Below are positions 45,001-48,000 of a DNA stretch of 64,000 nucleotides, one piece after another. Origin of the DNA: Escherichia coli (lineage in GTDB: Bacteria > Pseudomonadota > Gammaproteobacteria > Enterobacterales > Enterobacteriaceae). The position numbers are program-made. The stretch is from assembly GCF_030013205.1 (NCBI RefSeq), contig NZ_CP122648.1. The stretch is one strand, 5' to 3'. Each line of letters starts with the position of its first letter. Position 1 is the stretch's first letter.

Positions 45001-48000
45001 AAAAATTGAATCCTACCAGGGAGCTGCCGGTGGTTGGGGTGCTGTTAAATCCGTAGCGAATGCAGTACGTAAGCAGATGGATATACGCCAGGATGTTATT
45101 GCCATGTTTGACATGAATAAGCCAGAGGGCTTTGACTGTCCGGGTTGTGCATGGCCAGATCCTAAGCACAGTGCGTCATTCGACATTTGTGAAAACGGCG
45201 CAAAAGCAATCGCCTGGGAAGTCACGGATAAGCAGGTAAATGCCTCTTTCTTTGCTGAGAATTCGGTTCAATCATTACTTACCTGGGGAGATCACGAGCT
45301 TGAGGCTGCGGGGCGTCTCACCCAGCCTTTGAAATATGATGCCGTCAGCGACTGTTACAAGCCATTAAGCTGGCAACAAGCTTTCGACGAAATTGGCGAA
45401 CGCCTTCAAAGCTATAGTGATCCCAATCAGGTTGAATTCTATACTTCGGGCCGCACTTCCAATGAAGCTGCCTTTCTTTATCAGCTTTTTGCCCGTGAAT
45501 ACGGGAGCAATAACTTCCCCGACTGCTCCAACATGTGCCATGAACCGACCAGTGTGGGTTTGGCAGCGAGTATCGGTGTAGGTAAAGGGACCGTGTTGCT
45601 GGAAGACTTTGAGAAATGCGATTTAGTCATTTGCATTGGGCATAACCCTGGTACAAACCACCCTCGCATGTTGACTTCGTTGCGCGCTTTAGTGAAACGG
45701 GGAGCGAAAATGATCGCCATCAATCCTCTACAGGAACGTGGCCTGGAGCGATTTACCGCACCGCAAAACCCGTTTGAAATGCTGACGAACTCTGAGACTC
45801 AGTTGGCCAGTGCCTACTACAACGTGCGCATTGGTGGTGATATGGCGTTGCTCAAGGGGATGATGCGCCTGTTAATTGAGCGCGATGATGCTGCAAGCGC
45901 CGCAGGTCGGCCCTCATTGCTGGATGACGAATTTATTCAAACGCATACCGTCGGCTTTGACGAGCTACGCCGTGACGTTCTCAATTCCGAGTGGAAAGAT
46001 ATCGAGCGTATTTCTGGACTAAGTCAGACTCAAATCGCCGAACTGGCTGATGCATATGCCGCTGCCGAACGCACCATTATCTGTTACGGAATGGGGATCA
46101 CTCAGCACGAACATGGTACCCAGAATGTACAGCAACTGGTCAATCTGCTGTTGATGAAAGGTAACATTGGCAAGCCTGGTGCGGGTATCTGCCCACTACG
46201 AGGTCACTCTAATGTACAGGGCGACCGAACCGTCGGTATCACCGAGAAACCGTCTGCAGAGTTTCTGGCTCGCCTGGGTGAGCGCTATGGTTTCACCCCA
46301 CCTCATGCACCTGGACATGCTGCAATTGCCAGCATGCAAGCAATATGTACGGGGCAGGCTCGAGCATTGATCTGCATGGGGGGCAACTTTGCGCTGGCAA
46401 TGCCAGATCGGGAAGCGAGCGCTGTACCGTTAACACAATTAGATCTGACGGTACACGTAGCCACTAAGCTTAACCGCTCTCATCTGCTGACCGCACGGCA
46501 TAGCTATATTCTGCCGGTTCTGGGACGCAGCGAGATTGACATGCAAAAAAGCGGTGCGCAGGCGGTAACCGTTGAGGATTCAATGTCGATGATTCATGCC
46601 TCGCGTGGCGTGTTAAAACCCGCCGGTGTAATGCTGAAATCAGAGTGTGCAGTGGTCGCGGGAATCGCGCAGGCAGCACTACCCCAGAGCGTGGTAGCCT
46701 GGGAGTATCTGGTGGAAGATTATGATCGCATTCGCAATGACATTGAAGCTGTGCTGCCAGAGTTCGCCGACTATAACCAGCGCATCCGTCATCCCGGTGG
46801 TTTTCACCTGATAAATGCAGCTGCTGAAAGGCGCTGGATGACGCCGTCAGGTAAGGCTAATTTCATTACCAGTAAAGGGCTGTTAGAAGATCCCTCTTCA
46901 GCGTTTAACAGTAAGCTAGTCATGGCGACAGTACGCAGTCACGATCAGTACAACACGACGATTTATGGTATGGATGATCGCTATCGAGGGGTATTCGGTC
47001 AACGAGATGTGGTCTTTATGAGTGCTAAACAAGCTAAAATTTGCCGTGTAAAAAACGGCGAAAGAGTTAATCTTATTGCGCTTACGCCAGACGGTAAGCG
47101 AAGCTCACGCCGCATGGATAGATTAAAAGTGGTCATTTACCCTATGGCTGACCGCTCACTGGTGACCTATTTTCCAGAATCGAATCACATGCTAACACTT
47201 GATAACCACGATCCATTAAGTGGCATTCCTGGCTATAAAAGTATTCCGGTTGAATTAGAACCATCAAATTAATTCGCCTCCTCATTTCTTCTGCTGTCAT
47301 CCGCACAGCAGAAGAATTCCTCATTGACCATTGTCGCGCAATTTACTCACATGTGCTAAATTAAACTGCTCGTTATAAGATATATACCTCCGCCTACAGC
47401 TGTAAGAAACTCCGCTCAGTACTGAAGCGCCAGTCCTATTTCCTCTATTCTCCAGCCTGTTATATTAAGCATACTGATTAACGATGCTTAACGTCATTCG
47501 TTTAATAAACACATTTGAAATGCATGCGACCACAGTGAAAAATAAAATCACGCAAAGAGACAACTATAAAGGGATCATGTCTGTAATTGTGGTTGTCTTA
47601 TTACTGACCCTTACATTGATAGCCATTTTTTCGGCAATTGATCAGCTGGGTATTTCAGAAATGGGTCGCATTGCAAGGGATCTTACACATTTCATTATCA
47701 ATAGTTTGCAAGACTGAAAATAAACAGCAAATTATAAATATGAAATGTTAAAAAAGTATCGATAAAAACTTTATTGTTTTAAGGAGATAAAATGTCGCTT
47801 GTTTGTTCTGTTATATTTATTCATCATGCCTTCAACGCTAACATTTTAGATAAAGATTACGCCTTCTCTGACGGCGAGATCCTGATGGTAGATAACGCTG
47901 TTCGTACGCATTTTGAACCTTATGAGCGGCATTTCAAAGAAATCGGATTTAATGAAAATACCATTAAAAAATATCTACAATGCACTAACATCCAGACAGT

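What the first reader, a model, noticed from the sequence alone, without database searches (positions are those of the whole stretch)
47391..47408. Weaker EvgA-box-like sequence upstream of safA-ydeO
cgcctacagctgtaagaa preserves the right half-site and most of the left, positioned ~110 bp upstream of safA.
Basis: partly seen in the sequence, partly recalled or inferred. Interest (0 to 1): 0.2.

Follow-up and report, generated by a model that had tools for sequence, protein, structure and literature searches.

The report
Known EvgA box upstream of safA
This 18-base palindrome is the already-described docking site through which the acid-sensing regulator EvgA switches on the safA-ydeO acid-resistance operon of E. 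coli; it is real but ordinary, and differs from the laboratory-strain version only at its outermost base.

Summary
Window 47391-47408 reads CGCCTACAGCTGTAAGAA and ends 111 nt before the safA ATG (47520). The window is E. coli ydeP-safA-ydeO.

It is not a chance match. It is one of only two hits to TTCYTACANNTGTARGAA in 64 kb; the other is the ydeP box. A matrix built from five other K-12 EvgA-target sites scores it 19.4 bits, rank 2 of 63,983. The next unrelated site scores 10.8, and 0 of 200 random 64-kb sequences reach it.

In 5,426 complete E. coli genomes, three alleles cover 5,352 of the 5,370 that carry the region. They differ only at box position 1 (T in K-12; C here, 519 genomes) and at spacer position 10. 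The surrounding intergenic DNA varies at 21% of columns.

Published reviews state that EvgA binds the safA-ydeO promoter directly. "Weaker" is strain-specific: in K-12 this box scores above the ydeP box.

Most likely mechanism: a phosphorylated EvgA dimer bound about 73.5 bp upstream of an inferred start site activates an extended -10 promoter with a poor -35.

Verdict: already known, low interest. One minor extra: the safA and ydeP promoters are co-linear for about 65 nt downstream of their boxes.

The parts
47391..47408 (.). EvgA box: an 18-bp inverted repeat, CGCCTACA-GC-TGTAAGAA. The left half-site is 47391-47398, the spacer 47399-47400 and the right half-site 47401-47408. Position 1 (47391) is C here and T in K-12 and most E. 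coli.
   Evidence: sequence, consensus scan, matrix rank 2 of 63,983. (population alleles). (literature on EvgA binding to the safA promoter).
47458..47466 (+). Inferred core promoter: an extended -10 element, TGtTATATT (TG at 47458-59, hexamer TATATT at 47461-66). There is no good -35; TTTCCT/ATTTCC lies at 47438-44.
   Evidence: Read directly from the sequence. It sits inside an invariant run, 47454-47468, in 17 E. coli sequences. The consensus promoter scan found no canonical -35/-10 pair between the box and safA, as expected for an activator-dependent promoter. The element is inferred, not mapped.
47473..47473 (+). Inferred transcription start: an A, 7 nt after the -10 hexamer and 47 nt before the safA ATG. 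This puts the box centre (47399.5) at about -73.5.
   Evidence: Inference from the spacing only. No transcription-start data could be retrieved.
47409..47473 (+). A 65-nt promoter segment downstream of the box, co-linear with the segment downstream of the ydeP box (44751-44815). Shared blocks are AnTCCGC (47409-15), TGAAGC (47423-28), AGTCCTATTT (47432-41) and TGTTATATTAA (47458-68).
   Evidence: 41/65 identical without gaps, against 16.7 +/- 3.6 at other offsets. It is the best match of this segment anywhere in the window on either strand; the next best is 32.
47520..47717 (+). safA (65-aa connector that activates PhoQ), first gene of the regulated operon.
   Evidence: ORF list. RefSeq annotation of identical and near-identical genomes.
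47792..48553 (+). ydeO (AraC-family acid-resistance regulator), second gene of the operon.
44733..44750 (.). Sibling EvgA box upstream of ydeP (ATCCTACATCTGTAAGAA), the only other consensus match in the window.
47286..47316 (+). Strong hairpin just after the ydeP stop codon (12-bp stem, -17.5 kcal/mol). It marks the 3' end of ydeP, 75 nt upstream of the box, and separates the two transcription units.
   Evidence: z = -7.3. It is nearly invariant across strains. It is not followed by a T-run.

Best explanation
The 18-bp inverted repeat is the EvgA operator of the safA-ydeO promoter.

Mildly acidic pH activates the sensor kinase EvgS, which phosphorylates the NarL/FixJ-family response regulator EvgA. 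An EvgA dimer binds the two half-sites (CGCCTACA / TGTAAGAA) and recruits or stabilises RNA polymerase at a downstream promoter. That promoter has an extended -10 (TGtTATATT, 47458-66) and a poor -35. The inferred start is near 47473, which centres the box at about -73.5. Transcription yields SafA, which activates PhoQ/PhoP, and YdeO, which activates gadE and other acid-resistance genes.

Shown here: the sequence, its statistical distinctness, its location, and its near-fixation in E. coli. Taken from the literature: EvgA binding and EvgA-dependent induction of safA-ydeO. Inferred: the -10 element, the start site, the -73.5 position and the class-I-like mode of activation. The T-to-C change at position 1 in this strain probably has little or no effect.
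For: (1) Sequence match. The box matches 16/18 to the consensus, and the 14-bp core CCTACAGCTGTAAG is perfect.

(2) The same motif lies upstream of the other EvgA-activated operons in K-12: the emrK/evgA intergenic region, frc, and yfdX (two copies) give 4 hits in 18 kb against 0.27 expected. It also lies upstream of ydeP and safA.

(3) A matrix built without the safA site scores this site 19.4 bits, rank 2 of 63,983. A gap of 8.6 bits separates it from the next site, and 0 of 200 null sequences reach it.

(4) Population data. The region is present in 5,370 of 5,426 complete E. coli genomes. Three alleles account for 5,352 of them: 4,255 TGCC..GC.., 519 CGCC..GC.. and 578 TGCC..GT... Variation is therefore confined to position 1 and spacer position 10, although 21% of intergenic columns vary in 17 sampled sequences.

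(5) Literature.
[quoted passage not shown] - P_safA reporters are used as EvgS/EvgA read-outs (bioRxiv 10.64898/2026.05.06.723403).

(6) Architecture. The ydeP and safA promoters share the same box-to-(-10-like element) register, 41/65 identical. This argues for one common activation geometry.

(7) From my own recollection, because the paper is not held: Masuda & Church 2003 reported gel shifts, and that mutating the repeats upstream of ydeP and b1500-ydeO reduced EvgA-dependent induction.
Against: No binding or expression experiment exists for the C-allele box of this strain. C does not occur at position 1 or its symmetric equivalent in any of the 10 half-sites of the five training sites, and it costs 3.6 bits in the matrix.

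The start site and the -10 assignment are inferred. An alternative register exists: CTGAAG-16-TCTATT would put the box near -56.5. The ydeP promoter has a good sigma-70 match in that register (TTGAAG-16-TATATT).

The count of variable positions in the box (2 of 18, against 21% background) is not significant by itself; my hand binomial gives about 0.24. The conservation argument rests on which positions vary and on the population frequencies.

The consensus used for the scans came from my memory of the literature, although it was re-validated on K-12 loci. The primary papers (Masuda & Church 2003; Itou et al. 2009) could not be read here. evgAS lies outside the window and was not checked in this genome.
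Confidence: 0.93

Rival explanations
1. The box is a real EvgA site, but the T-to-C change at position 1, carried by this strain and about 10% of E. coli, measurably weakens EvgA binding. On this view safA-ydeO is less acid-inducible in this lineage, a natural cis-regulatory variant of the Evg network.
For: The C allele is confined to 519 of 5,426 genomes, and 494 of those share the identical 55-mer haplotype. C is absent from the equivalent position of all 10 half-sites of the other K-12 boxes, and the matrix score drops from 23.0 to 19.4 bits. Natural variation in the Evg pathway is documented for EvgS and for the presence of safA-ydeO (PMC5706723).
Against: Position 1 is the least conserved specified position. 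T, A and G all occur there in the other sites found upstream of EvgA-activated genes. The score of 19.4 bits is still above that of the promoter-proximal yfdX box (19.0). Much of the 3.6-bit penalty comes from pseudocounts on only 10 half-sites.
Confidence: 0.12
2. The palindrome is a chance occurrence with no regulatory role.
For: A loose consensus scan (up to 3 mismatches) expects 0.72 hits per 64 kb, and 18 of 100 shuffles gave at least 2 hits.
Against: Both hits fall exactly upstream of the two EvgA-induced transcription units in the window. The matrix score is 8.6 bits above any other site, and 0 of 200 null sequences reach it. The 16 other positions are fixed in more than 99% of E. coli genomes. 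The literature reports direct EvgA binding.
Confidence: 0.01
3. The inverted repeat acts at the RNA level, as a hairpin or terminator belonging to the ydeP 3' end or the safA leader, rather than as a protein-binding DNA site.
For: It is palindromic and lies between two genes on the same strand. Some papers write 'ydeP-safA-ydeO operon'.
Against: As RNA it does not fold: -0.1 kcal/mol, z = +0.77, and 142 of 200 shuffles fold at least as well. The two half-sites abut with a 2-nt spacer, which leaves no loop. The real ydeP 3' hairpin lies 75 nt upstream (-17.5 kcal/mol). No Rfam family matches 47200-47850. The box lies upstream of the inferred safA start.
Confidence: 0.01
4. The site is used mainly by a different NarL/LuxR-family regulator, such as RcsB or GadE, whose half-sites also contain TAAGAA-like sequence, and not by EvgA.
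For: TAAGAAACTCCGCT (47403-47416) matches 8/14 to the RcsAB-box consensus as I recall it. The equivalent ydeP sequence matches 9/14. These are hand comparisons, not tool results.
Against: The full 18-bp dyad matches the motif shared by all the EvgA-activated operons. The literature assigns binding to EvgA. An 8/14 match to a recalled consensus is weak. No held paper supports RcsB action at this promoter.
Confidence: 0.02

Closest known systems
EvgA box of the E. coli K-12 b1500(safA)-ydeO promoter. This is the 18-bp inverted repeat described by Masuda & Church 2003, with EvgA binding by Itou et al. 2009. Both papers are cited in held papers but were not readable here.
   Same: Orthologous position, 111 nt upstream of the safA ATG, with 17 of 18 bases identical (TGCCTACAGCTGTAAGAA in K-12). 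The flanks and downstream operon are the same.
   Different: Position 1 is C instead of T, an allele present in 519 of 5,426 complete genomes. The upstream flank and the 5' leader carry a divergent haplotype.
EvgA box upstream of ydeP, in the same window at 44733-44750
   Same: Same motif and same orientation, with the perfect TGTAAGAA half-site on the promoter-proximal side. The 65 nt downstream are co-linear (41/65), including a TGTTAWWTT element at the same distance.
   Different: It has 1 mismatch rather than 2 in this strain. It lies 243 nt from the ydeP ATG (box end 44750, ATG 44993), against 111 nt for safA. The ydeP promoter also has a good alternative -35/-10 pair (TTGAAG-16-TATATT) that safA lacks.
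Other EvgA boxes in K-12: emrK/evgA intergenic region, frc, and yfdX (two copies)
   Same: The same 18-bp dyad, TTCYTACA-NN-TGTARGAA, with 0-3 mismatches upstream of EvgA-induced genes.
   Different: Different downstream promoter sequence, only 20-28/65 identical to safA. yfdX has two boxes 38 bp apart, whereas safA has one; no second site scores above 0.2 bits within -45 to +59 bp.
BvgA sites of Bordetella virulence promoters. BvgA is a NarL/FixJ-family homologue of EvgA. This comparison comes from general knowledge and was not tested here.
   Same: A response-regulator dimer binds an inverted repeat well upstream of a weak core promoter and activates it after phosphorylation by an unorthodox kinase (BvgS/EvgS).
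   Different: BvgA promoters use a primary site plus tandem low-affinity dimers that reach the -35 region. Here the matrix gives no convincing secondary site for safA at +20 to +23 bp (best -9.4 bits). The recognition sequences also differ.

Membership tests
EvgA box (operator of EvgA-activated promoters in E. coli) | An 18-bp sequence matching TTCYTACA-NN-TGTARGAA | tested here: met
   16/18 match; both mismatches are at the outermost positions 1-2. It scores 19.4 bits on a matrix built from five other sites, within the range of those sites (19.0-25.6).
EvgA box (operator of EvgA-activated promoters in E. coli) | Dyad symmetry of two 8-bp half-sites separated by 2 bp | tested here: met
   The reverse complement of the right half is TTCTTACA; the left half is CGCCTACA. 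Five of eight positions are identical, and the fourth is C versus T (pyrimidine in both, as the consensus Y allows). The 2-bp spacer is GC.
EvgA box (operator of EvgA-activated promoters in E. coli) | Located upstream of an operon induced by EvgA | tested here: met
   It lies in the ydeP-safA intergenic region, 111 nt before safA-ydeO. EvgA-dependent induction of safA-ydeO comes from the literature.
EvgA box (operator of EvgA-activated promoters in E. coli) | Specific binding of (phospho-)EvgA in vitro (EMSA or footprint) | not testable with these tools
   Reported for the K-12 safA-ydeO promoter, according to PMC9496106 (citing Itou 2009) and PMC8147483. It has not been reported for the C allele of this strain.
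EvgA box (operator of EvgA-activated promoters in E. coli) | Mutating the repeat lowers EvgA-dependent expression | not testable with these tools
   I recall this from Masuda & Church 2003, for the repeats upstream of ydeP and b1500-ydeO. The paper is not held, so this is unverified here.
EvgA box (operator of EvgA-activated promoters in E. coli) | The cognate regulator genes evgAS are present in the same genome | not tested
   evgAS lies about 0.9 Mb away in K-12 and is outside the window. PMC5706723 states that evgAS is in almost all sequenced E. coli.
EvgA box (operator of EvgA-activated promoters in E. coli) | Sequence maintained by selection relative to its flanks | tested here: met
   Three alleles that differ only at position 1 or spacer position 10 cover 5,352 of 5,370 genomes. 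By contrast, 21% of intergenic columns vary in 17 sampled sequences. Cross-species footprinting is not possible: the genome contigs probe returned only E. coli-like contigs, and safA-ydeO is reported to be specific to E. coli and Shigella.
Class-I-type activator site (activator bound upstream of -60 on a promoter with a weak -35) | Box centre at a defined distance upstream of a mapped transcription start | tested here: inconclusive
   There is only an inferred extended -10 (47458-66) and an inferred start (about 47473), which put the centre at -73.5. No canonical promoter was called, and no start-site data were retrievable. An alternative register at about -56.5 is not excluded.

The most novel reading that the evidence does not exclude
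The 18-bp box may be only the upstream end of an approximately 80-bp composite EvgA-dependent promoter module shared by safA and ydeP. The module would run from the box through AnTCCGC, TGAAGC and AGTCYTATTT to TGTTAWWTT, all in fixed register. It could have arisen by duplication, and its extra blocks could be contacted by further EvgA protomers, the RNA polymerase alpha C-terminal domain, or sigma. In that case full activation would need more than the box. The lineage-specific T-to-C change at box position 1 (about 10% of E. coli) might additionally tune the induction of safA-ydeO.
Probability: 0.2. Interest if true: 0.3.

Novelty: already known. Interest (0 to 1): 0.08.

Why it matters
The site is the cis-element that links the EvgS/EvgA acid sensor to two downstream branches of E. 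coli acid resistance: YdeO to GadE, and SafA to PhoQ/PhoP. Confirming it shows that the first-stage reader can recognise a genuine operator from raw sequence. It adds nothing new to biology.

The modest added value is descriptive.
- The box is essentially fixed in E. coli, with three alleles that differ only at the least informative positions.
- The label 'weaker than ydeP' depends on the strain.
- The safA and ydeP promoters share an extended co-linear architecture. This constrains where RNA polymerase must sit relative to EvgA.

Tried and rejected
(1) Primary literature. Masuda & Church 2002 and 2003, Ma et al. 2004, Eguchi et al. 2007 and 2011 are not held. Full-text searches for the motif string or 'EvgA box' gave nothing useful. 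A search for ChIP, SELEX or DAP-seq data on EvgA gave nothing. A search for start-site data gave nothing.

(2) Cross-species footprinting. A degenerate probe for the ydeP 3' end, run against one genome per species, returned only two contigs. Both are E. coli-like sequences binned into unrelated MAGs and carry the K-12-type box. This fits reports that safA-ydeO and evgAS are restricted to E. coli and Shigella, so no deeper conservation test is possible.

(3) RNA-level explanation. Rejected by folding and by the Rfam scan.

(4) gadE upstream region. It has no consensus match within 3 mismatches, so it was not used for the matrix.

(5) A tandem secondary EvgA site, BvgA-like, 21-22 bp downstream. 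The matrix gives -9.4 bits for safA, +0.1 for ydeP, and nothing consistent in emrK, frc or yfdX. It is not supported for safA.

(6) Canonical sigma-70 promoter scan. It found no promoter between the box and safA, so the -10 assignment is manual.

(7) YdeO-box and PhoP-box scans of the promoter gave only weak matches near the safA ATG, with 2-3 mismatches. I did not pursue them.

Full report
**Identity of the region**

The window around the finding is the E. coli ydeP-safA-ydeO locus. ydeP runs 44993-47272, safA 47520-47717 and ydeO 47792-48553, all on the + strand. A 651-bp query spanning the finding is 100% identical to E. coli CFSAN018748. It is present in 5,379 of 5,426 complete E. coli genomes, and the RefSeq annotation under it reads ydeP / safA / ydeO.

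**The observation**

I compared it with the EvgA consensus TTCYTACA-NN-TGTARGAA. I took that consensus from memory of the literature and re-validated it below.
- The right half-site, TGTAAGAA, is perfect.
- The left half-site, CGCCTACA, has two mismatches, both at the outermost positions.
- The box ends 111 nt before the annotated safA ATG at 47520.

**Is it more than chance?**

- A consensus scan allowing up to 3 mismatches finds only two sites in the 64-kb window. They are this one and ATCCTACATCTGTAAGAA at 44733-44750, upstream of ydeP. These are exactly the two EvgA-induced transcription units in the window.
- In K-12 MG1655 the same pattern occurs upstream of safA (TGCCTACAGCTGTAAGAA in gene orientation) and ydeP (AGCCTACACCTGTAAGAA).
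- It also occurs in the emrK/evgA intergenic region, upstream of frc (a perfect match) and twice upstream of yfdX. That is four hits in 18 kb against 0.27 expected.
- I built a symmetrised weight matrix from the five K-12 sites other than safA. It scores the window site 19.4 bits, inside the range of the training sites (19.0-25.6).
- The site ranks 2 of 63,983 positions in the window. The next unrelated site scores 10.8 bits, and none of 200 Markov-1 random 64-kb sequences reaches 19.4.

**Population genetics of the box**

An alignment of the ydeP-safA intergenic region from 17 E. coli sequences shows 52 variable columns of 247 (21%). Within the box only two positions vary: position 1 (C in the window, T elsewhere) and spacer position 10 (C or T).

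I then designed 55-mer queries in which every 28-nt seed must contain the diagnostic base, and used them to count alleles.

| Allele | Genomes |
|---|---|
| TGCC..GC.. (K-12 type) | 4,255 |
| TGCC..GT.. (spacer variant) | 578 |
| CGCC..GC.. (window type) | 519 |

Together these cover 5,352 of the 5,370 genomes that contain the region. The 16 other positions of the box are therefore essentially fixed in the species. The only common variants sit at the least informative positions.

The raw count of variable positions, 2 of 18, is not significant on its own against a 21% background (my hand binomial gives about 0.24). The argument rests on which positions vary and on the genome-scale frequencies.

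A deeper phylogenetic footprint is not available. A degenerate probe for the ydeP 3' end against one genome per species returned only two E. coli-like contigs. The literature states that evgAS and safA-ydeO are confined to E. coli and Shigella (PMC5706723; PMC9496106).

**What is known**

- PMC8147483 lists safA among the promoters EvgA 'strongly binds'.
[quoted passage not shown] - P_safA reporters are routinely used as a read-out of EvgS/EvgA activity.

I also recall that Masuda & Church 2003 defined the 18-bp inverted repeat, showed gel shifts, and showed that mutating the repeats upstream of ydeP and b1500-ydeO reduced induction. I could not verify this, because the paper is not held.

The feature is therefore already known.

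**'Weaker'**

In this strain the safA box has 2 mismatches and 19.4 bits. It scores below the ydeP box, which has 1 mismatch and 21.2 bits. In K-12 the order is reversed, 23.0 against 21.25 bits. Both boxes differ between the two strains. The 14-bp core CCTACAGCTGTAAG is perfect. The label is therefore strain-specific and rests on the outermost bases, which vary among the other sites too.

**Mechanism**

The box does not fold as RNA (-0.1 kcal/mol, z +0.77), and no Rfam family matches the region. It is a DNA-level dyad suited to a dimeric helix-turn-helix regulator.

No canonical sigma-70 promoter lies between the box and safA, as expected for an activator-dependent promoter. By eye there is an extended -10, TGtTATATT, at 47458-47466. 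It sits inside an invariant run, 47454-47468, and has only a poor -35. A start about 7 nt downstream, at 47473, would give a 47-nt leader and centre the box at -73.5.

The safA and ydeP promoters support a common geometry. They are co-linear, without gaps, for 65 nt downstream of their boxes.
- In K-12 they are 40/65 identical, against 17.0 +/- 3.4 at other offsets.
- In the window they are 41/65 identical. The ydeP register is the single best match of the safA segment anywhere in the 64 kb on either strand; the next best is 32.
- The shared blocks are AnTCCGC, TGAAGC, AGTCYTATTT and TGTTAWWTTAA.

An alternative register, with -35-like CTGAAG and -10-like TCTATT, would place the box near -56.5. 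For safA this is disfavoured, because the putative -10 is polymorphic and reads TCTTTT in most strains. It cannot be excluded without start-site mapping.

A BvgA-like tandem secondary EvgA site about 21-22 bp downstream is not supported for safA (-9.4 bits).

**Verdict**

This is a genuine EvgA operator of the safA-ydeO promoter, and it has already been characterised. It is correctly located and essentially correctly interpreted. Interest is low.

The residual open points are minor:
- whether the C allele at position 1 (about 10% of genomes) changes EvgA affinity;
- where the start site lies;
- what the extra conserved blocks shared with the ydeP promoter do.

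Noticed in passing
window 47409-47473 vs 44751-44815: The 65 nt downstream of the safA and ydeP EvgA boxes align without gaps at 41/65 identity (other offsets 16.7 +/- 3.6). 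This is the best match of the safA segment anywhere in the window. The shared blocks are AnTCCGC, TGAAGC, AGTCYTATTT and TGTTAWWTTAA. It suggests a duplicated or commonly constrained EvgA-dependent promoter module of about 80 bp. emrK shows a weaker version (27-28/65).
   Followed up: partly
window 47416-47425: A perfect 10-bp palindrome, TCAGTACTGA, invariant in 17 E. coli sequences. Its centre is 21 bp (two helical turns) downstream of the EvgA box centre. It has no matrix support as a second EvgA site, and its function is unknown.
   Followed up: partly
window 47286-47316: A strong hairpin with a 12-bp stem (-17.5 kcal/mol, z -7.3) lies 14 nt after the ydeP stop codon. It is nearly invariant across strains and lacks a T-run. 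It is probably the ydeP 3'-end, stabiliser or terminator element that separates ydeP from the safA promoter.
   Followed up: partly
window 47484-47519: In this haplotype (shared with strains NGF1 and FDAARGOS_1372) an in-frame ATG at 47484 extends the safA ORF to 77 aa. K-12 and most strains have ATT there. The leader 47486-47505 is a divergent haplotype block (GCTTAACGTCATTCGTTTAA versus TTTTAACGTTATCCGCTAAA).
   Followed up: no
window 44733-44750 vs K-12 (L004 331-348): The ydeP EvgA box also differs between strains: ATCCTACATCTGTAAGAA here and AGCCTACACCTGTAAGAA in K-12. The relative strength of the ydeP and safA boxes is therefore reversed between the two strains.
   Followed up: partly
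window 47506-47522 (- strand) and 47513-47521: Two weak motif matches overlap the safA start. One is a PhoP-box-like sequence, with a perfect TGTTTA half-site on the minus strand and 3 mismatches overall. The other is a TGAAAT YdeO-box half-site. The literature reports PhoP and YdeO repression of this promoter, but these matches are weak.
   Followed up: no
L013 (USHE01000194.1, 'uncultured bacterium UMGS1713') and L014 (JARKOR010000108.1, 'Candidatus Nanosynbacter' MAG): Both contigs carry near-identical E. coli ydeP-safA sequence, including the K-12-type EvgA box. They are almost certainly E. coli contamination or mis-binning in these metagenome-assembled genomes. The E. coli species representative itself was not returned by the genome-contig scan, although the probe matches the K-12 sequence.
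   Followed up: partly
L007 (E. coli M11) 593-650 and L009 (O157:H7 Z1626) 1-73: RefSeq flags ydeO as frameshifted in strain M11, and ydeP as a truncated pseudogene in O157:H7 strain Z1626. The downstream Evg network is therefore eroded in some lineages even though the safA EvgA box is intact.
   Followed up: no
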